This document shows, in pieces, positions 10,970 through 39,259 of a stretch of 64,000 nt of DNA; positions within the stretch are counted from its first letter, which is position 1; each line of letters begins with the position of its first letter. The notes beneath the pieces are model-generated. The model was not told the origin of the DNA. It did not search any database and saw nothing but the letters and a program-made list of their open reading frames with translations. Origin of the DNA: an uncultured Nitrospinaceae bacterium (GTDB lineage Bacteria; UBA8248); assembly GCA_964005815.1 (NCBI GenBank), contig CAXFSR010000009.1, positions 69,973 through 133,972 on the forward strand. Direction: 5' to 3'. The position numbers and the translations under genes are program-made.

Positions 10970-11737
10970 ATGGGAAGAATGGCTGAATTAAGTATTAGAC
11001 CTCTACATTGTGGAACTATTCATACCGATTATTCAAATATGGTTTATTGGACCAATTTTGGAACGAAAATTGATATTCCTTCATTTATTTATTTAATTGA
11101 GGGAGCAGATCAAAAGATCGTAGTAGATACAAGTTATTTAGATCCTGAACGTGGGGGCGCGCCTTGGCCAGCTACTAGAACTCCAGAACAGGATGTAAAA
11201 AAACAGATTGAAAGTGCTGGTTGGAAATGTGAGGACGTAGAAATTTTGATTCTAACCCATTTGCACTGGGATCATTCTCAGAACTGCGATCTTTTTCCTA
11301 ATGCCGTAAAATATGTTTGGGCTAAAGAATTGCAATACGCAATGTGTCCAGTTAGTTTGCAAGCCAAGCCGTATGATTCCCCGATCCACCCAAATACAAG
11401 ATGGCCTGTTTATGCCCAACAAAATATTATTTTTGAACCTATTTGGAAAGATGAATTCGAAATTGTTCCAGGTGTCATGTATTTCCATACTCCTGGACAC
11501 ACTCCTGGACATTGTTCTGTCGCAGTTGAGACAAAAGTTGGTACATATGTAATTGCTGCCGATGTTATACAAATACAGGAAGGGTTAGATCGACGAGTTC
11601 CTGCCGGTCAAATGTCAAGTATGAGTGATGCTATTAATAGTATAGATAGATGTATTTCTATTGCTTCTAAAGAAGAATATATCTTGCCGGGGCATGAAAT
11701 TACAGTTCTTGAGCATGATGTTTATCCTTATGTCTAA
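10970..11737 (+). CDS. N-acyl homoserine lactonase family metallo-beta-lactamase fold hydrolase
   Basis: THLHWDH, TPGHTPGH, AAD, LPGHE. Confidence 0.88.
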   Translation: MGRMAELSIRPLHCGTIHTDYSNMVYWTNFGTKIDIPSFIYLIEGADQKIVVDTSYLDPERGGAPWPATRTPEQDVKKQIESAGWKCEDVEILILTHLHWDHSQNCDLFPNAVKYVWAKELQYAMCPVSLQAKPYDSPIHPNTRWPVYAQQNIIFEPIWKDEFEIVPGVMYFHTPGHTPGHCSVAVETKVGTYVIAADVIQIQEGLDRRVPAGQMSSMSDAINSIDRCISIASKEEYILPGHEITVLEHDVYPYV

Positions 11738-11770
11738 CTGTCAACTTTACTATCCTATGGAAGGTTAATA

Positions 11771-12148
11771 ATGGCGATGAGTGAAAGGGGCAAAGCCCTT
11801 TACGATCAGATGTTGGCTGCAAGAGGATTTATTTATCCCGCATATGAACTTCTATGTGAGGTTGACCCTGATCTCTTGGAGCATTATGAAGAATTGAAGA
11901 ACCATATAATGAAGAAAGAAGGTCCTTTCCATGAAAAATACAAGGAACTCTTCATAGCGGTTGCGAGTGCTTCTCGCGACCCTTCCGACTTGGAAGGTAT
12001 TCGTAATCACCTAAAGAAAGCACTTCAACTTGGTGCAACGGTAGAAGAGGCTACTGAAGCTCTAGAATGTATGTTGCCTCCATGTGGAATGACCGCATTA
12101 GTTGCAGGATGTAATCAATTAAAAGAAGTCATTGACGAAGGCTATTAA
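11771..12148 (+). CDS. Carboxymuconolactone decarboxylase (CMD) family protein
   Basis: KYKELFIAV...RNHLKKALQLGATVEEATEAL pattern. Confidence 0.8.
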   Translation: MAMSERGKALYDQMLAARGFIYPAYELLCEVDPDLLEHYEELKNHIMKKEGPFHEKYKELFIAVASASRDPSDLEGIRNHLKKALQLGATVEEATEALECMLPPCGMTALVAGCNQLKEVIDEGY

Positions 12149-12158
12149 TCTAAAATGT

Positions 12159-13379
12159 TTATTTAAGTTTGGGACCGTTGCAAACTTCTTTTGCGGCGGT
12201 CGCAAACATTGATGCAGCATGAATTAAATTTTTTGCTGGAACTCTTTCATTAGGCAAATGCGCCTCAGATATAAACTCACCAGGTCCAAAGAAAACTCCA
12301 GGAATCCCATTTTCTATGAATAATCTAAGAGCCCCTGGAGATTCTATTCCAGGTAGAAATTCGTTTTCAGTTCCTCTTACAGCCGGGACCACTCTTTTCA
12401 TTAGTTCTACAACTGGTTCTTCCTCTAAGATTTCTGTTACTTCTCTTGCACCACTTGGGATTATTTCCAGAGTGGCATCTATTTCAGGGTCTTCTGACTT
12501 TAGTTCTTCTATAATTTCTTCTAATTGTTTTTTTACTTCAGATGATTCTTGTCCTGGAATCATTCTTACGTCGAAAGTAGCGCTTGCTCTTCCTCCGACA
12601 ACATTGACAGCTGAACCTCCTTTAATTGTGGAAAATGTCAGTGTACAAGGACCTAGAAAAGGATCTGGTTCCGGGGCAATACGGTTTGCTTGAAAAGCGT
12701 CAATAATTTTAGCCAATTTTTCGATAGCATTGATCCCTTTTTCAGGAACGCTTACGTGAACTGATCTGCCACGAACTTTGATTTCGAAGAAAATGCGACC
12801 CTTAAAAGAACGGATAACATTGTTGCTTGTGGATTCTGTATATAAAACCATGTCACCATTTAGTTCTTTAAGAATTCCGTTGTTTACCAGAGATTGTGCG
12901 CCATAAAAATCTCCATGTTCTCCGTCGGACAATAGCACCCATGTGAGTATTCCAGGGAGTTTAATCTTTTGTTCTTGGATAGCTTTAAAAGCACCGATGG
13001 TTGATGCAAGAGCTCCTTTCATATCGGCAGCTCCTCTTCCCCAAATTTCATCTTCTACTAACTTCCCACTAAATGGTGGGACTTTCCAAGATTCAATTTC
13101 GTCCGGATGAACCGGAACAGTATCCATATGTCCGCCGATGACAAAATGTCCTGCATCGGGATTTCCGTCACCTGTTTGTATAATGAAATTTGGCATTCCT
13201 TTTTCATATTCATATGTTTTGATATTGCTGATTCCAATTGATTGCAGTTCTTTTAGAATCTTTTCAGCCACATCAGAACAATCTCCTGGAGGATTCTCTG
13301 CGGGGATTTGTATAAGTTCTTGTGCAAGTTCGACAACGTAATTTTCATTTACCTCAATTGCATTTATTTCTTCTGCCAT
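12159..13379 (-). CDS. M20 family metallopeptidase/deacylase (ArgE/DapE-like)
   Basis: GHMDTVP, GRGAADMKG, GRSVHVSVPEKGINAI, FGPG...AHLPNE. Confidence 0.88.
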   Translation of the reverse strand: MAEEINAIEVNENYVVELAQELIQIPAENPPGDCSDVAEKILKELQSIGISNIKTYEYEKGMPNFIIQTGDGNPDAGHFVIGGHMDTVPVHPDEIESWKVPPFSGKLVEDEIWGRGAADMKGALASTIGAFKAIQEQKIKLPGILTWVLLSDGEHGDFYGAQSLVNNGILKELNGDMVLYTESTSNNVIRSFKGRIFFEIKVRGRSVHVSVPEKGINAIEKLAKIIDAFQANRIAPEPDPFLGPCTLTFSTIKGGSAVNVVGGRASATFDVRMIPGQESSEVKKQLEEIIEELKSEDPEIDATLEIIPSGAREVTEILEEEPVVELMKRVVPAVRGTENEFLPGIESPGALRLFIENGIPGVFFGPGEFISEAHLPNERVPAKNLIHAASMFATAAKEVCNGPKLK

Positions 13380-13394
13380 GTGTTACTCCTGAAA

Positions 13395-14516
13395 TTAAAA
13401 GAATTGTTGTAATTTTTCTGGTGTCTTTAGTCCACTACCTGTTACTGGAATAACAATAATATCTTTTTTAGAGATTTTATTCGAATCTAAAAGTTCTTTT
13501 AGACCTAAAAATGGAATTGCACATGTAGGTTCCATTAAAATTCCTTGTTTTGCAAAATATTTTAAAATCAATCCAATTTTATTTTCTTCAACGGCAAATA
13601 ATTCCCCGTCTGTTTCATGAACAGCCTCAATAATTTGTTTCCAACGTACAGGTTTGCTTACACTAATTCCATCAGCCAAGCTAGAATTTAATCTTATTTC
13701 AGGGATTTTTGTAAGTTTTTGATCCCAAATTTGGACTAGTGGCGCACAATTTTTGGTTTGAACAGCATAAATTTTTGGTAATTTATCTGAATAACCTGCA
13801 TCCATCAGTTCCTTAAATCCTTTGTAAGCACCTATAACTAAGGAACCGTGACCTACTGGAATGATAACTGAGTCAGGGACTGTTTGTTGCATTTGTTCCC
13901 ATAATTCAAAAGCCCATGTTTTAGTTCCATGATTAAACCAGCAGTTCCAAAAATGACTAGCATAGAAACAATGTTTAGTTTCTCTTAATGCAGCTTCAGT
14001 AGTTGATTGTCTGGGACCTTTTATTTTTTTTAGATTCGCACCAAAAGCTGAGATCTGCATACATTTAATTTCCGAGGTGTTATCGGGCACGTACATGTCA
14101 CATTCAATATCTGCAAGTGATGTGTATGCAGCTATTGATGCTGCGGCGTTTCCCGAAGAATCGCCTAAAACTTTTTTGATTTCCCACTCTTTTAATTTGC
14201 TTGCTAGTACAGTTGAACCCCTATCTTTGAAAGAACCTGTTGGAAAAAAGAAATCTAGTTTGCATTGGATTTCCATTTTTGCGAAAGGAAAATCCCTCAA
14301 CGGAGTCATTCCTTCTCCAAGGCTAATCTTATTTTTTATATTCTTCAGAGGAATAGATTCTTTATATCTCCAAAGGCTCGATTCTCTTGAACCAAGCAAC
14401 TTTTTTGGAAAGATATTTTCTATTTTTATATCTAGAGTGCCACCACATTCGCATCTCCATCGTGGTTCTTCATCAGGAAACTCAACGTCGCAGCTTGTAC
14501 ACTTTAGTGATGACAA
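13395..14516 (-). CDS. thrC: Threonine synthase family PLP enzyme with N-terminal zinc ribbon
   Basis: CxxC...CxCGG, SLGEGMTPL, PTGSFKDRG, DSSGNAAAS, PVGHG, TGSGLK. Confidence 0.8.
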   Translation of the reverse strand: MSSLKCTSCDVEFPDEEPRWRCECGGTLDIKIENIFPKKLLGSRESSLWRYKESIPLKNIKNKISLGEGMTPLRDFPFAKMEIQCKLDFFFPTGSFKDRGSTVLASKLKEWEIKKVLGDSSGNAAASIAAYTSLADIECDMYVPDNTSEIKCMQISAFGANLKKIKGPRQSTTEAALRETKHCFYASHFWNCWFNHGTKTWAFELWEQMQQTVPDSVIIPVGHGSLVIGAYKGFKELMDAGYSDKLPKIYAVQTKNCAPLVQIWDQKLTKIPEIRLNSSLADGISVSKPVRWKQIIEAVHETDGELFAVEENKIGLILKYFAKQGILMEPTCAIPFLGLKELLDSNKISKKDIIVIPVTGSGLKTPEKLQQFF

Positions 14517-31699: not shown

Positions 31700-32089
31700 A
31701 TGGCGAAAGTTTTAAGTGTTAAAAATCTTCCTGTGGATCAAAAATATGAACCAGGATTTAATCTTACATTTGGAATTACAGATGATACAACAGGTATAGA
31801 GACTGCAACGTTGGTAAGGACGAATTTTCCACCTGATACTGTTAGCAAACCCCATTATCACGAAAATGGTGATTTGATGTGGTATCACATGTCTGGACCA
31901 AAGGCTATTTGGAATATAGGTAAGGAAAAAATAGAACATGTGACTGAACCAGGGGATTTTATTTATATCCCTAGAGGTGAAATTCATAATACAGTGAACA
32001 ACAGCAAAACAGAGTCTGTTGAAGGAATTGGGGGTTACGGCGGTTGTGCAAACCCTTATAAAAGTGGAAAGATTTTTGTAGAGATTTAG
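31700..32089 (+). CDS. Cupin domain protein
   Basis: PHYHENGD...PGDFIYIPRGEIH. RBS AAGGAGG. Confidence 0.85.
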   Translation: MAKVLSVKNLPVDQKYEPGFNLTFGITDDTTGIETATLVRTNFPPDTVSKPHYHENGDLMWYHMSGPKAIWNIGKEKIEHVTEPGDFIYIPRGEIHNTVNNSKTESVEGIGGYGGCANPYKSGKIFVEI

Positions 32090-32096
32090 AGTTTTT

Positions 32097-32132
32097 ATAA
32101 CAGTGGTGGTTTTAAATGACCACCACTGTTAT
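32097..32132. terminator. Bidirectional intrinsic terminator
   Basis: Perfect 14-bp inverted repeat ATAACAGTGGTGGT/ACCACCACTGTTAT between convergent genes. Confidence 0.8.
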
Positions 32133-32145
32133 TAACGTTTTCATT

Positions 32146-32817
32146 TTAATTTTTTGATGAATCTGGCTGAGGGACAATTCGAATATAAGGTAGTGGAGTT
32201 TCCCATCCTTCGGGATACTTTTCTTTGGCTTCTTCATCGGAAACCGCTGGGAGAATAATAACATCATCTCCCTGTTGCCAGTTTACAGGTGTTGCAACTT
32301 GTTCTTTGGCAGTTAATTGACAGGAATCAAGAAGACGAAGGATTTCATGGAAATTTCTTCCTGTGCTCATTGGATAGGTTAACGTTGCTCTGACTTTTTT
32401 GTCTGGCCCTATCAGGAAAACTGAGCGTGCAGTTGCATTGTCAGTGGCAGTTCTTCCTTCTGAGGAATCTCCATCCTCTGTTGGTAGCATGTCAAAAGCT
32501 TTGACGATTTCTAGTCCCGGGTCTCCTACTAATGGATAACTCACTTCGTGACCCTGTGATTTTTCAATATCCTTAGACCATTTTTCGTGGTCAGATACTC
32601 CGTCCACACTAATACCTAGAATTTTGCAATTTCTTTTTTCGAACTCGTTTTTAAGTCCAGCCATAAAGCCTAACTCTGTAGTACAAACTGGGGTAAAATC
32701 TTTTGGATGAGAGAAAATAATTGCCCAACCTTCACCGATCCATTCATGAAAATCAATAGTCCCTTGTGTGGTTTCAGCAATAAAGTTTGGTGCTTCGTCA
32801 TTTATTCTTAAGGTCAT
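32146..32817 (-). CDS. 1-Cys peroxiredoxin (Prx6 family)
   Basis: FSHPKDFTPVCTTELG, YPMSTGRNF.EILR.LDS.QL, ATPVNW. ATG at 32817 follows AGAGGA. Confidence 0.93.
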   Translation of the reverse strand: MTLRINDEAPNFIAETTQGTIDFHEWIGEGWAIIFSHPKDFTPVCTTELGFMAGLKNEFEKRNCKILGISVDGVSDHEKWSKDIEKSQGHEVSYPLVGDPGLEIVKAFDMLPTEDGDSSEGRTATDNATARSVFLIGPDKKVRATLTYPMSTGRNFHEILRLLDSCQLTAKEQVATPVNWQQGDDVIILPAVSDEEAKEKYPEGWETPLPYIRIVPQPDSSKN

Positions 32818-32901
32818 TGTTGTCCTCTTCATAATTCAAAATAATTTATTTAAAAATGGTTATTAGTTTTTTTTTGCTAATAATTCCATTAGACTAATTT
32901 T

Positions 32902-34338
32902 ATGTCAATGAATACTAAATCATATATTCATTCAGCAGCCAATATTCTTGTTCATGTTCCTGAGTTGGTGCGTTTTGGATCTAAGTGCCATCGGGAAATT
33001 GAAGATTCAGGAAATGGGTTCCTGCAAAAATTGAATGAAAATCTCCGTAATTTTGAGGAAGTAGTTTCTTATCCACCAAATCAAACATTTATTGGCAATT
33101 TGAAACCGGAAAAGCTCCAAGAAAAATCGAAGCCTTGGTTTGAAAACCTTCTAAGTTCAGCAACTAGAGAAGGAGTTTTTGGTGAAATTATGGATCAATC
33201 GACCTTTTATATGCTTTTGAAATCTGCAGATGATTTCGATCTTTTTTTCTTGGATTCTTCTTTTATTAATTCAAACAATAATTCTAGCAATACTGCAAAG
33301 AAAATTTTTAGTGATAAGTTCTTAGAAAAAGGAAGTGAAATTGATGAAATTTTAAAAAATATAGATGTGAATAACTCATTGCCGATTGAGAATGATGGAA
33401 AAGTCATAGGTTGCTTTCGTTCGGATCACGACAAGGATGAGTCTTTAGATGCGAAAATTTTATTGGAAAATCTATCTGCAAAAGCAAGCGGTGCATTTGC
33501 CCTAAATCGTCTATTGATTCAAGAATCAATTGATCCATTGAATGTGGAATATATTATCAGTTGTTCAGAAGAGGCTATTGGTGATCGCTATAATCGAGGT
33601 GGAGGAAATCTGGCAAAAGCGATTGGAGAAATGGTAGGTTGCAAAAATGCGGCTGGAATGGATATCAAGGCTTTTTGCGCGGCACCAGTTTATGCACTTA
33701 TTCATGCTGCATCACTAATTCAATCTAAGGTCGTAAAAAATGTTGTGGTAGTAGGAGGTGGTTCTTTGGCCAAGTTAGGAATGAAGGCTCATTTTCATAT
33801 GGAGAAACAAATTCCTATACTTGAGGATTTGTTAGGTGGCGTAGCATTCTATTTGTCTTCTGATGGTTCTGATGGGACTCCTTATATTAATTTGGAAATT
33901 GTTGGCCATCATCGAATAGGAAGCGCTTCTTCGCCTCAAGAAATGGTTGAATCATTAGTCTATGGGCCTTTGGATAAAGCAAATCTGTCAGTATTCGATA
34001 TTGATAAATTTTGTGTCGAGCTTCATAATCCTGAGATAACTGTTCCAGCTGGTGCAGGCGATGTCCCTCTTGTTAACTATAAGACTATAGCAGCTCTTGC
34101 AGTTATGAAAAAGAAATTGGCAAAGGAAGAGATTGAAGATTTCATTCTTGAAAAAGGTATGCCAGGATTTTCTCCTACTCAGGGTCACATTCCTGCTGGT
34201 GTACCTTATCTAGGGTATGCTATTAAGGATCTGAGAGAAGGAATTCTTAAAAGGGCTATGGTTGTTGCAAAAGGAAGTCTGTTTCTTGGTCGCATGACGA
34301 GGAGTGCAGATGGAGTTTCTGTTGTTGTTCAAGTATAG
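32902..34338 (+). CDS. grdC: Glycine/sarcosine/betaine reductase component C, beta subunit (FabH-like)
   Basis: YPPNQTFIGN, LLENL..KASG, CSEEA.GD...RGGGNLAKA, FCAAP, ELHNPEIT.PAGAGDVP..NYK, GFSPTQGHIP, KGSLFLGRMT. Confidence 0.92.
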   Translation: MSMNTKSYIHSAANILVHVPELVRFGSKCHREIEDSGNGFLQKLNENLRNFEEVVSYPPNQTFIGNLKPEKLQEKSKPWFENLLSSATREGVFGEIMDQSTFYMLLKSADDFDLFFLDSSFINSNNNSSNTAKKIFSDKFLEKGSEIDEILKNIDVNNSLPIENDGKVIGCFRSDHDKDESLDAKILLENLSAKASGAFALNRLLIQESIDPLNVEYIISCSEEAIGDRYNRGGGNLAKAIGEMVGCKNAAGMDIKAFCAAPVYALIHAASLIQSKVVKNVVVVGGGSLAKLGMKAHFHMEKQIPILEDLLGGVAFYLSSDGSDGTPYINLEIVGHHRIGSASSPQEMVESLVYGPLDKANLSVFDIDKFCVELHNPEITVPAGAGDVPLVNYKTIAALAVMKKKLAKEEIEDFILEKGMPGFSPTQGHIPAGVPYLGYAIKDLREGILKRAMVVAKGSLFLGRMTRSADGVSVVVQV

Positions 34339-34363
34339 ATTTTAAATTTGGAAAGGAGGTTTT

Positions 34364-34816
34364 ATGGATGATCGCAAAGTTATTGTCCTTGGAGAAAGAG
34401 ACGGTATCCCTGGACCTACTATTGCTGAATGTCTTGAGGCTTCAGGAAGAGAAATAGTTTTTCAGAAAACAGAATGTTTTGTTTGAACTTCTGCGGGTGC
34501 AATGGATCTGGATAATCAGGCAACTATTAAAAAGCTTTCTGAAGAGTATGGTTCGGAGAATTTAATGGTTGTTTTGGGGATGCCAACTGACGGATTGAAA
34601 ATAGCGGTTGAAACTCTAACCAAAGGAGATCCAAGTTGGGCAGGGCCATTGGCGGGAGTCTCGTTGGGACTTCCAGTTTATCATGTTCTTGAAGAAGAGA
34701 TTAGGGATCTAATTCCGCCTGAAATCTACGAAGAAAAATTGAAAATGATGGAAATAGTTTTGGATTTAGAAGAAATTAAATCGAATTTGTCAGAGATGCG
34801 TGCAAGCAATTCTTAA
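34364..34816 (+). CDS. grdA: Glycine/sarcosine/betaine reductase selenoprotein A (Sec41 at TGA 34484-34486), 150 aa
   Basis: RBS AAAGGAGG and ATG at 34364. Translation MDDRKVIVLGERDGIPGPTIAECL...TECFV-U-TSAGAMDLDNQ runs in frame into track ORF 34502-34816 (ETLTKGDPSWAGPLAGV.LGL.VYH). Confidence 0.95.
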
Positions 34817-34837
34817 AATACTTCGGAGGAAAATAAA

Positions 34838-36115
34838 GTGCGTTTAGAAATGGGCTTGTTCCCTGTTGAAGATATTGTGGAAGGAGATGAGACTACCTTT
34901 TCTGATGGCTTGTTGACACTGAATTTTAAACAACTTCGGGATATGGCAATGGAGGAAGAAAAATTTGAAGATGTTAGTTTTCATATAGCTCTTCCAGGTG
35001 ACTCAGTTAGGATCACGAATGTATTAGATGCAGTTGAACCAATCCATAAGATAAATGGAAATTCATCCGAGTTTCCTGGTTTTTTAGGCCCAGCAAGAAC
35101 AGCAGGAGATGGTTTGACTCATAAACTTTCAGGGATGTGTGTCTTGAGTTCAACGTTCTTTTTAGGTCCTCAGACGGGCATTATGACTTGCCGTGAAGGT
35201 ATTATTGATATGTCAGGACCAGGCACAAAATTTTGTACCAACTCTGATACCTTGAATCTTGTAATTAGATTCCTCCCTCTTTCTAGTGCGACGAATATTG
35301 AGCATGATGATGCAGTCAGGCTTGTAACTCTTAAAATTTCTTCATGGCTTGCTAGTTTGACAAAAGATATGTCTCCAAAGGAAACAAAAGTATACGAACT
35401 AACAGATGTTGATCCTTCACTTCCCAAAGTTGTTTATGTAGATCAAGTAATGCATCAAGCTCCTATGGTGCAAACTTTTATGTATGGGAAAGATTTGGGA
35501 GATTCTCTTCCTACTCTTATCCATCCAAATGAAATGTTGGATGGAGCGGTCGTTGGGGGAAATTATAAAACTTCGCAGAAAGTTCCGACTTATCTCCATT
35601 GCAATAAGCCATTAATTCTTGAATTGTATAGTCGTCATGGAATAGACTTGAACTTTGTTGGAATGATTCTCACCAGAGGTCATAGAGATAATCAAGCTTT
35701 GAAAGAGCGGTCTGCTCAGTATGTTGCAAAGCTTGCAAAAATTCTTAAAGCAGATGGTGCAGTTTTATCATTTGAAGGCGGCGGAAATTCTTCTGTTGAT
35801 TATTGGTTAACTGTTCAGGCTCTAGAGCAAATGGATATTACAGCTGTTCCAATCATCTACGAAGTTGGAAGACCTGGAACTGATGAATTTCCTTTAGTTT
35901 ACCATGTTCCTGAGGCTAATTCGATCGTTAGTAAAGGCGCAAATGGAGATAAAGTTGACGCTCCTGCGATGGAAAAGGTAATTGGTTCAGAAAAAATATT
36001 TTTGTATGGTGGACAAGAATTTGACGCACGTGGAAATCTGAAAATAACTAACTCAGATTATTACGCAACGGAGTGGGCATTAGATATCAATGGTTTTGTT
36101 GGCAAGGATTTTTGA
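34838..36115 (+). CDS. grdE: Glycine/sarcosine/betaine reductase component B proprotein (GrdE/GrdG/GrdI-like)
   Basis: MRLE, PGDSVRI..VLD.VEP, FPG, EGIIDMSGPG, PTLIHPNEMLDGA, KERSA, ADGAV...EGGGN. Lies between grdA and grdB. Confidence 0.88.
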   Translation: MRLEMGLFPVEDIVEGDETTFSDGLLTLNFKQLRDMAMEEEKFEDVSFHIALPGDSVRITNVLDAVEPIHKINGNSSEFPGFLGPARTAGDGLTHKLSGMCVLSSTFFLGPQTGIMTCREGIIDMSGPGTKFCTNSDTLNLVIRFLPLSSATNIEHDDAVRLVTLKISSWLASLTKDMSPKETKVYELTDVDPSLPKVVYVDQVMHQAPMVQTFMYGKDLGDSLPTLIHPNEMLDGAVVGGNYKTSQKVPTYLHCNKPLILELYSRHGIDLNFVGMILTRGHRDNQALKERSAQYVAKLAKILKADGAVLSFEGGGNSSVDYWLTVQALEQMDITAVPIIYEVGRPGTDEFPLVYHVPEANSIVSKGANGDKVDAPAMEKVIGSEKIFLYGGQEFDARGNLKITNSDYYATEWALDINGFVGKDF

Positions 36116-36152
36116 TTCTAACTCAATTTTCAGAGTGGAGGCTTAAGACACT

Positions 36153-37469
36153 ATGAGTGAAATTAAAATTGTACATTTCCTGAATCAATTCTTTTCTGGT
36201 TCTGGAGGTGAAGAGGTTGCAGATGAGCCCTTAAAATTTCATGATCAACCAATTGGTCCAGGAGTGCTGCTAGACAAAATACTCGGGAAAAATGGAAAGG
36301 TAATAGGTACGATTTCTTGTGGAGATAATTATTTTTTTAAAAATGAGAATTCTGTCTATGAAGAAATAAATAAATTTTTTAAGGCAAACTCTCCAGATCT
36401 CTTGATTGCAGGTCCTGCTTTTAATGCAGGTCGCTATGGACTTGCCTGTGCGAAGTTGTGCAAGGAAATTTCTTTGCAAAATGATTGCAAAGTTATTACT
36501 GGGATGTTTGAAGAAAATCCAGGAATTGATGCTGCCAAAGGAGATGTTCTTATAGTTCAAACTGGATCGTCAGCTGGCGATATGGAAAGTGCGTTAGATA
36601 AGATTGTTGAAATTGGTTTAAAACTGGTGTCAGGAGAAAAATTAAATTCTGCACAAGAAGAGGGATATTTCCCTTCAGGAGTTAGGTATAATATTCAGCT
36701 TGAAACTTCCGCTTCACCTAGAGCAGTTGACATGCTTCTTAAAAAAATAAAAGGAGTTCCTTTTGTATCAGAACTGATTGTCCCAGTTTTGGACAAAGTT
36801 GATCCTCCTGAACCTATTTCTGATTTAAAGAAAGCAGTTATCGCAATTGCATCTGAAGGAGGAATGGTTCCACCAGATAATCCTCACAAGATACCTGGTT
36901 CTAGAACTAATAAATGGGGGATGTATTCTTTTTCAGGAAAGAAGGAACTCGAACAGGATTCTTTTATTTCTATTCATGGTGGTTTTAATACGGTTTTTGT
37001 AAATGAAGACCCTGATCGCATTATTCCATTAGATGCACTCCGAATTTTTGAAGATAATGGAGAGATTGCTAAAGTATATGAGGATTTCTTTAGTACTTGC
37101 GGTAATGGGGGAGCTTTTGGACATATGCAAGAAATTGGACAGTCTTGGGCTAAAGAACTAAAGAATGGCGGAGTTGCTGGTGTGATTTTACCTGCAACCT
37201 GAGGCACAGGAACACGTAGCGGAGCTGCGTTAGCAAAAGAACTTGAAAGAGAAGATATTCCTACCGTACTTATCACATGTCTCCCAGATGTTGCAAAAGA
37301 TATAGGTGCGAATAGGATAGTAAATAATAAAGCTGGTCATTTTCACCACCCTTTTGGGGATCCAAGCATGACAAAGAAGGCCGAAGAAGCCTGGCGGTTA
37401 GGTGCAGTAAGGGTGGCACTTAAAGCGTTGCAAACTCCCGTAGAGGTCCCAACCGTTTTTGAATACTAA
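36153..37469 (+). CDS. grdB: Glycine/sarcosine/betaine reductase selenoprotein B (Sec350 at TGA 37200-37202), 438 aa
   Basis: VHFLNQFF..GGEE.A, CGDNYF, AGPAFNAGRYG, ENPG, HGG, EDPDR..PLD. Read-through gives PAT-U-GTGTRSGAALAKELEREDIP...IGANRIV...HPFGDP...ALKALQTPVEVPTVFEY up to TAA at 37467-37469. Confidence 0.95.
37203..37230 (+). promoter_or_regulatory. Candidate SECIS element of grdB
   Basis: 11-nt spacer after UGA, then a 7-bp stem ACGTAGC(37214-20)/GCTGCGT(37224-30) with a GGA apical loop. Confidence 0.7.
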
Positions 37470-37545
37470 TATTTTTTTTTTTGCTCATATCCATGTATGA
37501 TAAAATATAAATAAAATACATTGAATTAGTTTTTGGGAGATCTTT

Positions 37546-38499
37546 ATGGTTCTAGATTATTTAGAATTAAGAAAAAGGACTCAGGATAGGGATAAGTCAC
37601 TTAGAGAGAAAGTGATGAGTTTGGAAGAAGCCTCAACACTTGTGTCTAATGGAGATCATATAGCACTTGGTGGTTCAACGGCGTCAAGAACATCATTTGC
37701 TCTTCTTTGGGCACTCATAAGAGCTAAGAAAAAAGATTTGACTTTTTCAAGAAGCATAGTTTCTACGGAAGGAGATCTGATTTTTGCTTCTGGAATAGGA
37801 AAAGAGATTCAAACTAGTTGGTTTAGTCAAGGAATTGTATGGGGTGTTTCAAGAGTAATGAGACATTTTACAGAAAATAATTTGGCGACCTATAGAGAAT
37901 GGAGTCATATGTCCATTGGGTTACGTTATAGGGCGGGGGCTATGGGAGTTCCATTTATGCCGATGAGATCAATGATGGGATCTGATGTTGCTGATCAACT
38001 AGAAAATCTGAAAGAGATTCCTTGTCCTTTTACAGGAGAAAAAATCTTATTGGTTCCCGCTCTAAACCCTGATGTTGCGCTTATACATGTACAACGATGT
38101 GATGCATTTGGGAATGCACAATTAGACGGATTGACTTTCATGGATCTAGATATGGCTATGGCCGCAAATCGTGTAATCATAACTACTGAACGAATCATTT
38201 CTAATGATAAAATAAGAAGATCTCCTGATTTGACGAAGATCCCTTTTTTCACTGTTGATGGTGTAGTTGAGGTCCCATATGGTTGTGTTCCTCATGAATG
38301 TTATGGGGTCTATGAACCCTTGTTTTCGCATATGGATTATTATGCCGATCTTACACGGAAAGACCCTATGGAAGGGGTTCAAGAATATCTGGAAAAATTT
38401 TATTACTCTCCAAAAAATTGGAATGAATACCTTGATTTAATTGGAATAGATGAAATTCTCGATGCAACTCAAAGAGGGAGAAGTATTTATGACGATTAA
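37546..38499 (+). CDS. CoA-transferase subunit A (glutaconate CoA-transferase GctA-like)
   Basis: KVMSLEEA, RYRAGAMGVPF, CPFTGE...VPALNPDVALIHVQRCD..GNA. Confidence 0.9.
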   Translation: MVLDYLELRKRTQDRDKSLREKVMSLEEASTLVSNGDHIALGGSTASRTSFALLWALIRAKKKDLTFSRSIVSTEGDLIFASGIGKEIQTSWFSQGIVWGVSRVMRHFTENNLATYREWSHMSIGLRYRAGAMGVPFMPMRSMMGSDVADQLENLKEIPCPFTGEKILLVPALNPDVALIHVQRCDAFGNAQLDGLTFMDLDMAMAANRVIITTERIISNDKIRRSPDLTKIPFFTVDGVVEVPYGCVPHECYGVYEPLFSHMDYYADLTRKDPMEGVQEYLEKFYYSPKNWNEYLDLIGIDEILDATQRGRSIYDD

Positions 38500-39259
38500 T
38501 TCTAATTCTTTTACCTCTTCAGAACTCCTCTGTATCATGAGTTCGCGTGCTTTAAAAGATGGCCAAGTGGTTTTTGCCGGTGTGGGTATTCCTTTATTGG
38601 CTGCTACACTTGCACAAAGATTGCACGCGCCTGGATTAACCATTCTCTTCGAAGGCGGAACTATAGGTCCACATATTGTTCCTGGAGAATTACCGCCGAC
38701 AACCAATGAGCAACGTTGTACTAGAAAAGCCAATATGTTGGTCAGTATTACGGAAGTTCTTCTCTTGTTGCAAAGAGGTTATGTAGATGTTGGATTTATG
38801 GGAGGAGCTCAAATAGACAAATATGGAAATTTAAATAGTTCTTTCATTGGAAGTGCTGATAATCCTTCAGTGAGATTACCCGGAACTGGGGGTGGAAATG
38901 ATATTGCAAGTCTTTCGAATATGATTGTTGCTATGCCACAAGAAAAACGTCGTTTTGTTGACAAAGTGGATTTTATAACAAGCCCTGGATACATTAGTGG
39001 TGGGAGCACTCGAAAGGATTCCGGTTTGATCTCTGGCGGAATGTACAGAATTGTCACAGATTTGGCGATTCTTGGGTTTGATGAAAGTGGAAGGATGCAG
39101 GTAGAAGCGTTACATCCTGATGTAACTGCAGAACAGGTAAAAGAAAATACAGGTTTTGAACTTGTGATTCCCGAGAATATACCAAGAACAGATACTCCAA
39201 CAGAAGAAGAGTTAAGTGCTCTAAGAATTTTAGATCCTGATAAAGTTTACACCGCTTAA
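38489..39259 (+). CDS. CoA-transferase subunit B (GctB-like)
   Basis: FAGVGIP, FEGG (catalytic Glu region), GGAQIDKYGNLN, RLPGTGGGNDIAS. Overlaps the subunit A stop. Confidence 0.9.
   Translation: MTINSNSFTSSELLCIMSSRALKDGQVVFAGVGIPLLAATLAQRLHAPGLTILFEGGTIGPHIVPGELPPTTNEQRCTRKANMLVSITEVLLLLQRGYVDVGFMGGAQIDKYGNLNSSFIGSADNPSVRLPGTGGGNDIASLSNMIVAMPQEKRRFVDKVDFITSPGYISGGSTRKDSGLISGGMYRIVTDLAILGFDESGRMQVEALHPDVTAEQVKENTGFELVIPENIPRTDTPTEEELSALRILDPDKVYTA

What the first reader, a model, noticed from the sequence alone, without database searches (positions are those of the whole stretch)
32902..37469. Atypical selenium-dependent glycine-reductase-like system (grdC-grdA-grdE-grdB) without grdD or thioredoxin genes
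Seen: a compact four-gene cluster with two in-frame UGA codons at conserved Sec sites, and no grdD, trxA, trxB, grdX or ackA within about 30 kb on either side. Established: clostridial reductases need GrdD (PlsX-like, carries the catalytic Cys that releases acetyl phosphate) together with FabH-like GrdC and a thioredoxin system, usually in the same cluster. Inference: with the GrdE and GrdB substitutions reported separately, and neighbours typical of oxidative catabolism (LLM monooxygenases, peroxiredoxin), this may be an undescribed reductase variant. It could cleave a different carboxymethylated substrate (quaternary amine, sulfonium or similar) and possibly release an acyl-CoA through the GrdC Cys (AFCAAP) instead of acetyl phosphate.
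Basis: partly seen in the sequence, partly recalled or inferred. Interest (0 to 1): 0.85.

Follow-up and report, generated by a model that had tools for sequence, protein, structure and literature searches.

The report
GrdD-less selenium reductase, marine Nitrospinota
This is a real four-gene, two-selenoprotein relative of the clostridial glycine reductase in a marine, oxygen-respiring bacterium; it lacks three textbook catalytic parts, so it probably cleaves some other small acid and does not make acetyl phosphate.

Summary
grdC, grdA (Sec41), a grdE-like gene and a grdB-like gene (Sec350) lie at 32902-37469.

The 97%-complete genome has no GrdD. It does have SelA, SelB, SelD, tRNA-Sec, and TrxA and TrxB, all elsewhere.

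Three textbook features are missing:
- GrdD is absent.
- The Asn-Cys self-cleavage site of GrdE is Asn-Tyr243.
- Both cysteines of the GrdB UxxCxxC motif are lost (UGTGTRSG).

This is a lineage trait, not decay:
- 52 of 55 non-clostridial genomes examined carry GrdC without GrdD.
- Sec is kept in 78 of 78 GrdB relatives.
- Related Nitrospinota keep the C-A-E-B order.

In trees, GrdB and GrdE fall outside the glycine and betaine reductase clades. They also fail the published GrdB and GrdF motifs and all NCBIfam cut-offs.

- The genome has no acetate kinase or phosphotransacetylase. AckA is missing in 38 of 47 GrdD-less genomes.
- It encodes a haem-copper oxidase.
- GrdC of GrdD-less systems carries a K295/H375 signature, but this maps to one tree split only.
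- Marine metatranscriptome contigs cover the cluster.

The substrate and product (acetyl-CoA or acetate) remain inferred.

This scan has reported the same GrdD-less variant before on other DNA. I found no paper describing it.

The parts
32902..34338 (+). grdC-like gene: protein C beta subunit, thiolase/FabH fold, with active-site Cys259 in KAFCAAP
   Evidence: NF040746 scores 612 bits, above the 450 cut-off. Cys259 is present in 69 of 69 GrdC sequences. A profile search aligns it with the active-site Cys of FabH. The AF2 model has pLDDT 90.9, and the top Foldseek hits are FabH, SpoVAD, PqsBC and OleA.
34364..34816 (+). grdA: selenoprotein A with the CxxU motif (Cys38, Sec41)
   Evidence: NF040748 scores 207 bits, above the 130 cut-off.
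34484..34486 (+). In-frame TGA, the Sec41 codon of grdA
   Evidence: Position. In an RNA library, contig X6 record 26 (34288-35363) covers it with 0 differing letters.
34838..36115 (+). grdE-like gene: protein B alpha-type subunit, with Asn242-Tyr243 where canonical GrdE has the Asn-Cys self-cleavage (pyruvoyl) site
   Evidence: PF09338 scores 373 bits. GrdG scores 257 against a 780 cut-off, and FarE 137 against 675.
36153..37469 (+). grdB-like gene: selenoprotein B with Sec350 in ATUGTGTRSG, having lost both Cys of UxxCxxC
   Evidence: Scores: TIGR01918 433 bits; GrdF 447 against 800; GrdH 404 against 775; GrdB 389 against 602.
37200..37202 (+). In-frame TGA, the Sec350 codon of grdB
   Evidence: Position. 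TGA is conserved in 78 of 78 relatives.
37214..37230 (+). Candidate SECIS hairpin: 7-bp stem, 3-nt loop, starting 11 nt after the TGA
   Evidence: RNAfold gives -8.3 kcal/mol. This is a prediction only; covariation was not tested and no Rfam family matched.
37546..39259 (+). Two overlapping family-I CoA-transferase subunit genes, 76 nt downstream of grdB; a possible accessory, with a weak link
   Evidence: PF01144 scores 82 and 94 bits. The pair is adjacent to the grd genes only in the window, in L030 and in the distant L072, out of 80 loci. One RNA-library contig bridges 37383-37674.

Best explanation
The four genes encode a working, selenocysteine-dependent reductase of the glycine-reductase (Grd) family. 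It belongs to a large lineage outside the Clostridia that works without GrdD, without a pyruvoyl group on the GrdE-type subunit, and without the CxxC after the Sec of the GrdB-type subunit.

Proposed mechanism (all steps inferred unless noted):
1. The GrdE'/GrdB' pair binds an alpha-substituted acetate, X-CH2-COO-. Its leaving group X needs no Schiff base. Candidates are a quaternary ammonium, a sulfonium, a halide or similar, as in the pyruvoyl-less betaine (GrdHI) and fluoroacetate (FarEB) enzymes.
2. Sec350 of GrdB' displaces X.
3. The carboxymethyl group passes to Sec41 of GrdA.
4. On the thiolase-fold GrdC, Cys38 of GrdA closes a Se-S bond. The resulting acetyl enolate is captured as a thioester on Cys259.
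5. The organism has no GrdD, no acetate kinase and no phosphotransacetylase. The acetyl group therefore leaves as acetyl-CoA, by the reverse of the FabH acyl-loading step, or as free acetate. It does not leave as acetyl phosphate.
6. Oxidised GrdA is re-reduced by the housekeeping TrxA/TrxB.

Shown here: the genes, the Sec codons, the three losses, their conservation across the lineage, and the absence of the acetyl-phosphate enzymes.
Inferred: the substrate class, the product and the electron donor.
For: The genes are intact and are scored as Grd components. The Sec machinery is present.

GrdD is absent.
- In the window's own genome the best hit is 18.5 bits against a 350 cut-off, and tblastn finds nothing.
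- It is also absent in G002-G005, with the positive control G001 scoring 531 bits, and in 48 of 50 further genomes.
- Of those 50, 49 have GrdC over its cut-off and 49 have GrdA with a TGA.
- Six of the Nitrospinota-type genomes are titled as complete chromosomes.

The losses in GrdE and GrdB track each other.
- GrdE': Tyr243 replaces the pyruvoyl Cys. Canonical GrdE in 9 reference loci has N-C. GrdI, next to verified GrdH (837 and 828 bits), has S-F. The C. difficile pyruvoyl peptide starts at residue 242 (PMC9908766, passages read).
- GrdB': 61 of 78 relatives carry UG[TS]GTRSGA. In the 92-row table (window and reference loci included) all 62 such rows but one, whose partner motif could not be read, sit beside an N-Y-[KR] GrdE.

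Phylogeny and synteny agree.
- The GrdB tree has a 98* split separating 40 Cys-less rows from 25 Cys-retaining rows, which include canonical GrdB and GrdH. The window lies in a 14-row Nitrospinota/Tectimicrobiota clade (99*). The GrdE tree agrees.
- C-A-E-B order is kept in 24 of 27 Nitrospinota-type loci. The other three are cut by contig ends.

Acetyl-phosphate enzymes are missing.
- The window's genome has no AckA and no PTA_PTB.
- AckA occurs in only 11 of 50 related genomes and in 0 of the 22 Nitrospinota-type ones. In G185 one ackA copy lies about 600 bp from grdD.

Other support.
- GrdC Cys259 is invariant and aligns with the FabH active-site Cys. The fold is thiolase/FabH.
- FarB and FarE are a published precedent for a Grd-type B protein without CxxC and without the pyruvoyl Cys, acting on a non-amine substrate (PMC10838667).
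- RNA-library contigs at 95% identity or more cover grdA, grdE' and parts of grdB'.
Against: - No biochemical datum exists for any member of this lineage. Substrate, product and reductant are all inferred.
- Gene neighbourhoods give no substrate clue. Nothing besides the four genes is conserved.
- The GrdC signature is K295 in 54 of 54 and H375 in 52 of 54 GrdD-less sequences, against N295 and Q375 in 15 of 15 GrdD-linked ones. It coincides with a single split of the GrdC tree, one change. It may therefore be simple ancestry, not adaptation to the loss of GrdD.
- Nine of the 47 GrdD-less genomes do have AckA. Acetyl phosphate is thus not excluded for the whole lineage.
- The genome is 97% complete, not closed.
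- The RNA contigs come from one study and could contain DNA.
- The closest NCBIfam hit to GrdE' is GrdG (sarcosine), not FarE.
Confidence: 0.6

Rival explanations
1. It is an ordinary betaine reductase. GrdE'/GrdB' are functional equivalents of GrdI/GrdH, cleaving glycine betaine to trimethylamine plus an acetyl unit. The missing GrdD affects only how the acetyl group is released.
For: Like GrdI, GrdE' has no pyruvoyl Cys. Betaine is an abundant marine osmolyte (established knowledge; PMC9321204 seen only as a listing and abstract). An aromatic residue (Tyr243 here, Phe in GrdI) occupies the former cleavage position.
Against: GrdH scores 404 bits, well below its 775 cut-off. Verified GrdH keeps UxxCxxC, and the window protein does not. 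In both trees GrdH/GrdI group with canonical GrdB/GrdE, away from the window's clade. Many genomes in this lineage carry several E'B' pairs, which implies several substrates.
Confidence: 0.2
2. It is a reductive detoxifying or scavenging enzyme whose acetyl thioester on GrdC is simply hydrolysed to acetate. No energy or CoA ester is conserved. The point of the reaction is to remove X (a halide, amine or thiol) or to salvage it.
For: There is no GrdD, AckA or Pta. FarEB is a dehalogenating precedent that shares both cysteine losses. The organism respires oxygen (COX1 at 502 bits), so it does not need substrate-level phosphorylation.
Against: The thiolase-fold Cys259 and its surrounding residues are invariant. 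That fits controlled acyl transfer better than hydrolysis. An NADPH-consuming selenoenzyme is an expensive route to plain hydrolysis. There is no direct evidence either way.
Confidence: 0.25
3. It is a classical glycine, sarcosine or betaine reductase that makes acetyl phosphate. GrdD either lies in the unassembled 3% of the genome or is replaced by the housekeeping PlsX.
For: GrdD is a PlsX relative, and the genome has a PlsX-like ORF on C13. The assembly is in 64 contigs.
Against: GrdD is also absent from related genomes titled as complete chromosomes. AckA and Pta are absent too. The pyruvoyl Cys needed for glycine or sarcosine is missing. In G185 a GrdD-linked set and a GrdD-less set coexist as separate clusters, each with its own kind of GrdC.
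Confidence: 0.07
4. It is a decaying remnant of a horizontally acquired grd cluster and has no function.
For: Three canonical features are missing. In some relatives, selfish genes (a PIN toxin, a DNA methylase) are inserted between grdE and grdB.
Against: All four frames are intact apart from the two Sec codons. Sec is kept in 78 of 78 GrdB relatives. The replacement residues are themselves invariant: N242 and Y243 in 17 of 17 aligned sequences. Gene order is conserved down to about 57-70% identity. RNA-library contigs cover the genes.
Confidence: 0.02

Closest known systems
Clostridial glycine reductase GrdA / GrdB-GrdE / GrdC-GrdD with TrxA/TrxB (Peptoclostridium acidaminophilum, Acetoanaerobium sticklandii type; organism names recalled). 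Reference loci here are L116-L120, L123 and L126-L128.
   Same: GrdA has CxxU. GrdB-type subunit has Sec at the same position. GrdE-type partner is present. GrdC has the thiolase fold and the same active-site Cys. Identity to the references is 42-45% for GrdB, 34-38% for GrdE, 45-48% for GrdC and 49-52% for GrdA.
   Different: There is no GrdD in the genome. There is no Asn-Cys cleavage site (Tyr243). Neither Cys of UxxCxxC is present. No trx genes lie in the cluster. The genome has no ackA or pta. Gene order is C-A-E-B, not TrxB-TrxA-E-A-B-C-D. The host encodes a haem-copper oxidase.
Betaine reductase GrdH/GrdI. Verified GrdH at 837 and 828 bits in L108/L121 and L109/L122.
   Same: The GrdE-type subunit has no pyruvoyl-forming Cys, so no Schiff-base chemistry is expected. 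An aromatic residue sits at that position.
   Different: GrdH keeps UxxCxxC. Where the components are clustered (L121), GrdH/I sit with GrdA, GrdC, GrdD and TrxA. GrdH/I lie in a separate tree clade. The GrdH model scores only 404 bits against a 775 cut-off.
Fluoroacetate reductase FarACEB of Cloacibacillus porcorum MFA1 (PMC10838667)
   Same: According to the paper (section 9, read), FarB lacks the CxxC and FarE lacks the cysteines for pyruvoyl formation. These are the same two losses as here, and the substrate is not an amine.
   Different: FarE HMM scores 137 bits against a 675 cut-off. No MFS antiporter or radical-SAM gene lies beside the cluster. The Far system is predicted to feed the organism's GrdA and protein C, and grdC and grdD appear in the paper's gene maps (figure legend). 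No Far sequence was available here for a tree.
FabH / KAS III and other thiolase-fold acyl-Cys enzymes
   Same: GrdC shares the fold and the nucleophilic Cys at the N-terminus of the same helix.
   Different: GrdC has about 190 extra N-terminal residues and a DUF5940 C-terminal part. Foldseek identity is only 12-20%. Equating H375 and H429 with the FabH/KAS catalytic His/Asn rests on recalled motifs and was not tested.

Membership tests
Glycine reductase (GrdABCDE) | Selenoprotein A with a CxxU redox motif | tested here: met
   The motif is CFVU41. NF040748 scores 207 bits, above the 130 cut-off.
Glycine reductase (GrdABCDE) | GrdB with Sec in a UxxCxxC motif | tested here: not met
   Sec350 is present, but the motif is UGTGTRSG. 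The 9 canonical references have UGTCTRCG. TIGR01917 scores 389 bits, below its 602 cut-off.
Glycine reductase (GrdABCDE) | GrdE proprotein with an Asn-Cys self-cleavage site that gives the pyruvoyl group | tested here: not met
   The window has N242-Y243. Canonical sequences have N-C. The pyruvoyl peptide starts at residue 242 in C. difficile (PMC9908766).
Glycine reductase (GrdABCDE) | Published GrdB sequence motif (Nobu et al. 2022, PMC9751293 methods, passage read) | tested here: not met
   The regex matches 7 of 9 canonical references. It matches 0 of the 62 rows with the UG[TS]GTRSGA motif, window included, out of 92 rows tested.
Glycine reductase (GrdABCDE) | Protein C made of GrdC plus GrdD | tested here: not met
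   GrdC is present at 612 bits. The best GrdD hit in the genome is 18.5 bits against a 350 cut-off.
Glycine reductase (GrdABCDE) | Acetyl phosphate as product, used by acetate kinase | tested here: inconclusive
   No AckA and no PTA_PTB were found in a 97%-complete genome. The product itself cannot be tested with these tools.
Sarcosine reductase (GrdF/GrdG) | NCBIfam exception-level scores and the published GrdF motif | tested here: not met
   GrdF scores 447 against 800, and GrdG 257 against 780. The GrdF motif matches 0 of 92 rows. No verified GrdF sequence was in my trees.
Betaine reductase (GrdH/GrdI) | GrdH equivalog score and placement with verified GrdH | tested here: not met
   GrdH scores 404 against 775. 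The window lies on the other side of a 98* split from verified GrdH, and the GrdE tree agrees.
Betaine reductase (GrdH/GrdI) | An unprocessed GrdI-type subunit with no pyruvoyl Cys | tested here: met
   The window has Tyr243, and GrdI has Phe at the aligned position.
Fluoroacetate reductase (FarACEB) | FarE equivalog score, with farA (MFS antiporter) and farC (radical SAM) in the operon | tested here: not met
   FarE scores 137 against 675. No MFS or radical-SAM domain was found among the 27 neighbouring ORFs scanned.
D-proline reductase (PrdA/PrdB) | PrdA and PrdB equivalog scores | tested here: not met
   PrdA scores 41 against 700, and PrdB 83 against 300.
GrdD-less, Cys-poor Grd lineage (unnamed; seen repeatedly in this scan) | GrdA and GrdC present, no GrdD in the genome, GrdB with UG[TS]GTRSGA, and GrdE with N-Y-[KR] | tested here: met

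The most novel reading that the evidence does not exclude
These genes encode an oxygen-compatible selenoenzyme system. It lets aerobic or microaerobic marine and soil bacteria reductively cut a C-X bond of an abundant small acid, such as a betaine-, sulfonium- or halo-acetate, and load the two-carbon unit directly onto CoA through GrdC alone. On this reading the GrdD-less form is the ancestral, self-sufficient state of protein C. The acetyl-phosphate-forming GrdD of the Stickland fermenters would be a later add-on confined to one branch of the GrdC tree.
Probability: 0.25. Interest if true: 0.85.

Novelty: new variant of a known kind. Interest (0 to 1): 0.65.

Why it matters
Glycine-type reductases are textbook enzymes of strictly anaerobic amino-acid fermenters, and their role there is to make ATP through acetyl phosphate. 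Here the same selenoprotein core sits in a pelagic marine Nitrospinota genome that encodes a haem-copper oxidase. That genome has no GrdD, no acetate kinase and no phosphotransacetylase.

The same stripped-down architecture recurs in Tectimicrobiota, Dehalococcoidia, Desulfobaccales and other lineages. If it is active, it marks an unrecognised, selenium-dependent reductive route for a small organic acid in oxic or low-oxygen water and soil, with a different end product.

Finding its substrate could:
- add a sink, or a trimethylamine or halide source, to marine carbon and nitrogen budgets;
- explain part of the selenium demand of such bacteria;
- show how protein C chemistry works without GrdD.

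Current annotation files these genes as 'glycine/sarcosine/betaine reductase', and metabolic reconstructions may take that name at face value.

Tried and rejected
- Rfam on 32000-38000 gave no SECIS or other relevant family, only a chance sRNA hit at E = 0.24.
- The promoter and terminator scan could not say whether the CoA-transferase genes are co-transcribed. Promoter-like sites numbered 17, against 23.8 expected.
- I searched for a conserved neighbour that could stand in for GrdD. I clustered 1192 ORFs from 80 loci plus the window and 385 ORFs around 20 GrdC/GrdA loci. Nothing besides the grd genes recurs. GrdC-GrdA pairs mostly sit beside another E-B pair.
- The CoA-transferase pair next to grdB recurs in only 2 of 80 loci (L030, L072). 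That is too few to build on.
- The 1-Cys peroxiredoxin upstream is kept only in the three closest relatives, L028-L030.
- The K295/H375 signature of GrdC cannot be used as independent evidence of co-evolution with GrdD loss. The trait changes only once on the tree.
Foldseek output gives no residue pairs.
- RNA-library contigs gave no cover of grdC at 32905-33948 in any of the four runs. This is not evidence of anything.
- Literature searches. 'glycine reductase' with 'Nitrospin' found 0 papers. GrdC, GrdD, 'acetyl phosphate' and 'thioester' together found 0. GrdD, GrdC and 'absent' found 6 papers, none on this topic judging by title and abstract. PMC5537630 (passages read) treats GrdH abundance only and does not bear on this variant.
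- Complex prediction was not used, because no claim here depends on a binding prediction.

Full report
**What is there**

The stretch 32902-37469 holds four closely spaced genes on the + strand.
- grdC: 32902-34338, 478 aa. It passes the NCBIfam equivalog for protein C beta (612 bits, cut-off 450).
- grdA: 34364-34816, 150 aa. Reading the TGA at 34484-34486 as Sec gives CFVU41. It passes the selenoprotein A model (207 bits, cut-off 130).
- grdE-like: 34838-36115, 425 aa, GTG start. It hits Pfam Gly_reductase at 373 bits.
- grdB-like: 36153-37469, 438 aa. Reading the TGA at 37200-37202 as Sec gives Sec350. It hits Pfam GRDB at 417 bits and the broad selenoprotein-B subfamily TIGR01918 at 433 bits.

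The last two proteins fail every substrate-specific model.
- GrdB-like: GrdB 389 bits against a 602 cut-off; GrdF 447 against 800; GrdH 404 against 775; PrdB 83 against 300.
- GrdE-like: GrdG 257 against 780; FarE 137 against 675; PrdA 41 against 700.

**Are the UGA codons selenocysteine?**

The window lies in a 2.24-Mb, 64-contig assembly. It is 35% G+C and 97% complete. The genome encodes:
- SelA and SelB, together on C60;
- SelD, itself with one in-frame TGA;
- a tRNA-Sec with a UCA anticodon.

Conservation supports Sec.
- All 78 of 78 GrdB relatives recovered from other genomes have TGA at the same place.
- All 55 GrdA matches over the cut-off in 50 related genomes contain exactly one TGA.
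- A 7-bp hairpin starts 11 nt after the grdB TGA. It is a prediction only, and Rfam has no family for it.

**What is missing, in this genome**

- The GrdD model finds only an 18.5-bit match to a PlsX-like ORF, against a 350 cut-off.
- A tblastn with a GrdD that I verified in a Christensenellaceae-labelled MAG locus (L099, 531 bits) finds nothing.
- Thioredoxin reductase (355 bits, C23) and thioredoxin (122 bits, C52) are present but not nearby.
- Neither acetate kinase nor any PTA_PTB-family enzyme is found.
- A haem-copper oxidase subunit I is present at 502 bits. The host can therefore respire oxygen.

**What is missing, in the proteins**

I took reference loci from a sample of 151 genomes of the class of that control genome. 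The clostridial references mostly read TrxB-TrxA-GrdE-GrdA-GrdB-GrdC-GrdD.
- Their GrdE has S-G-N-C-V-S-A-C, and their GrdB has U-G-T-C-T-R-C-G.
- The Cys after Asn is the pyruvoyl precursor. In C. difficile the pyruvoyl peptide begins at residue 242 (PMC9908766, passages read).
- The window's GrdE-like protein has N242-Y243 there. Both residues are invariant in a 17-sequence alignment spanning 42-90% identity.
- The window's GrdB-like protein has U-G-T-G-T-R-S-G, so both cysteines are gone.
- GrdI beside two verified GrdH genes (837 and 828 bits) also lacks the Cys (S-F), but those GrdH keep UxxCxxC.

A paper on the fluoroacetate reductase FarACEB states that FarB lacks the CxxC and that FarE lacks the cysteines for pyruvoyl formation, 'similar to grdI' (PMC10838667, section 9 read). 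This is the only described system I found with both losses. The FarE model, however, scores only 137 bits here.

**Is this a lineage or an accident?**

A scan of one genome per species found 287 stretches encoding relatives of the GrdE-like protein. The best 80 were kept.

*Synteny.* 27 loci belong to the Nitrospinota-type group, which includes one locus labelled Tectomicrobia.
- 24 show the same C-A-E-B order, at 63-94% GrdE identity.
- The other three are cut by contig ends.

*Motif pairing.*
- 61 of the 78 GrdB relatives carry UG[TS]GTRSGA.
- The 92-row table, which adds the window and the reference loci, has 62 such rows. All but one, whose partner motif could not be read, sit beside an N-Y-[KR] GrdE.
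- The nine canonical GrdB pair with N-C.
- The two GrdH pair with S-F.

*Trees (quick IQ-TREE, SH-aLRT support only).*
- In the GrdB tree a 98* split separates 40 Cys-less rows, all from outside the Bacillota, from 25 rows that keep at least one Cys. The 25 include canonical GrdB and GrdH.
- The window sits in a 14-row Nitrospinota/Tectimicrobiota clade (99*).
- The GrdE tree agrees.

*Published motifs.* The GrdB motif (PMC9751293, methods passage read) matches 7 of 9 canonical references and none of the 62 Cys-less rows. The GrdF motif matches none of the 92 rows.

**GrdD across genomes**

- GrdD is absent from G002-G005. These are two chromosome-level Nitrospinota-type MAGs, a Tectomicrobia MAG and a Dehalococcoidia MAG. 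It is present in the control G001.
- In 50 further genomes it is present in only two: a Desulfobaccales MAG (G185), and an Acidobacteria MAG (G191) where it is split over contig ends.
- 49 of those 50 have GrdC over its cut-off, and 49 have GrdA.
- Counting the window's genome, 52 of 55 non-clostridial genomes examined have GrdC without GrdD.
- AckA is found in 11 of the 50 and in none of the 22 Nitrospinota-type genomes. Among the 47 GrdD-less genomes that have GrdC, 38 lack it.
- In G185 one ackA copy lies about 600 bp from grdD in a canonical-type cluster. A separate GrdD-less E-B-C-A cluster lies elsewhere in the same genome.

**Protein C**

- GrdC Cys259 (KAFCAAP) is present in 69 of 69 sequences.
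- A profile search against PDB sequences aligns it with the active-site Cys of several FabH enzymes.
- An AF2 model is confident (pLDDT 90.9, pTM 0.92). Its nearest solved folds are FabH, SpoVAD, PqsBC and OleA, with no solved GrdC among the hits listed.

GrdC from GrdD-less systems differs from GrdD-linked GrdC at a few positions.

| Position | GrdD-less GrdC | GrdD-linked GrdC |
|---|---|---|
| 295 | K in 54 of 54 | N in 15 of 15 |
| 375 | H in 52 of 54 | Q in 15 of 15 |
| 226 | Cys in 0 of 54 | Cys in 13 of 15 |

The GrdD-linked sequences form one side of a single branch of the GrdC tree (97*, one change). The signature and the presence of GrdD are thus one evolutionary event, and I cannot separate adaptation from ancestry. 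From recalled FabH/KAS motifs, H375 and H429 may correspond to the catalytic His/Asn pair.

**Context**

- Nothing but the four genes is conserved around the cluster.
- In several relatives a PIN-domain gene or a DNA methylase gene lies between grdE and grdB.
- In Dehalococcoidia and Entotheonella genomes the GrdC-GrdA pair lies beside one of several E-B pairs. No candidate GrdD substitute recurs.
- The two CoA-transferase genes 76 nt downstream of grdB are shared only with L030 and the distant L072.

**Expression**

Four marine metatranscriptome runs, from one study and at most three samples, contain contigs at 95% identity or more over grdA, grdE', parts of grdB' and the CoA-transferase genes.
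- A 1076-nt contig spans the end of grdC, all of grdA with its TGA unchanged, and the start of grdE'.
- DNA carry-over cannot be excluded, and contigs do not prove single transcripts.

**Reading**

The cluster is a functional member of an uncharacterised branch of the Grd family.
- Without a pyruvoyl carbonyl it cannot activate glycine or sarcosine as a Schiff base. By analogy with GrdHI and FarEB, its substrate should be an alpha-substituted acetate with a good leaving group.
- Without GrdD, AckA and Pta, acetyl phosphate is an unlikely product. Acetyl-CoA, formed by thioester exchange at GrdC Cys259, or acetate are the candidates.
- The housekeeping thioredoxin system is the likely reductant.

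These last three points are inference.

**Prior sightings**

This scan has reported the same GrdD-less, Cys-poor variant before, on DNA from Rokubacteria, Acidimicrobiia and other Actinomycetota, Binatia-like and other soil lineages. I read those notes after forming my reading, and they agree with it. I found no paper that describes the variant. Supplementary files of the papers cited were not opened.

Noticed in passing
G000:C3, about 37509-38405 (L004:1411-2307): This may be a third selenoprotein of the reductase-B superfamily. Two adjacent ORFs both match PrdB, at 90 and 34 bits against a 300 cut-off. They join into one 298-aa frame if a TGA is read as Sec169, in the motif PVUPLC. A maleylpyruvate-isomerase-like gene lies upstream.
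   Followed up: partly
G000:C49:38431-39390: SelD itself carries one in-frame TGA, so it is a selenoprotein form of selenophosphate synthetase.
   Followed up: no
L032, L037, L089 (about 11300-13800); L044, L050 (about 11300-13100): In several Nitrospinota-type relatives, 1.2-2.5 kb of extra genes sit between grdE and grdB. They include a PIN-domain protein and a DNA methylase fragment. They look like selfish insertions into the operon.
   Followed up: partly
L144, L145, L146 (genomes G192, G204, G196): Three related genomes carry a second complete set in the order grdA-grdC-grdE-grdB. Its GrdA is more divergent (about 141 bits), and the flanking genes are shared among the three.
   Followed up: no
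L092, L094, L095, L097, L099, L100, L102, L104, L106: A clostridial group has GrdB with an intact UxxCxxC. Its GrdE-type partner has N-Y, not N-C, and a different conserved Cys eight residues upstream (L-D-G-C). L099 and L106 also show TrxB, TrxA, GrdA, GrdC and GrdD alongside. This looks like another uncharacterised substrate class within otherwise canonical systems.
   Followed up: partly
window 23517-54640: The cluster sits in a dense catabolic island. It holds two acyl-CoA dehydrogenases, an MmgE/PrpD protein, a 3-hydroxyacyl-CoA dehydrogenase, a Zn-ADH, a cupin, two luciferase-like monooxygenases, a PLP enzyme, a molybdenum hydroxylase large subunit, an M20 deacylase, an M24/creatinase-like peptidase, a TRAP transporter, two UbiD-like decarboxylases and an amidohydrolase. 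None of it is conserved next to the grd genes beyond the closest relatives.
   Followed up: partly
G185 (L124 and L125): One Desulfobaccales genome holds two kinds of cluster. One is GrdD-linked (A-E-B-C-D, with a TrxA-like hit beside it and an ackA copy about 600 bp beyond grdD). The other is GrdD-less (E-B-C-A). Each has its own type of GrdC (N295/Q375 against K295/H375).
   Followed up: partly
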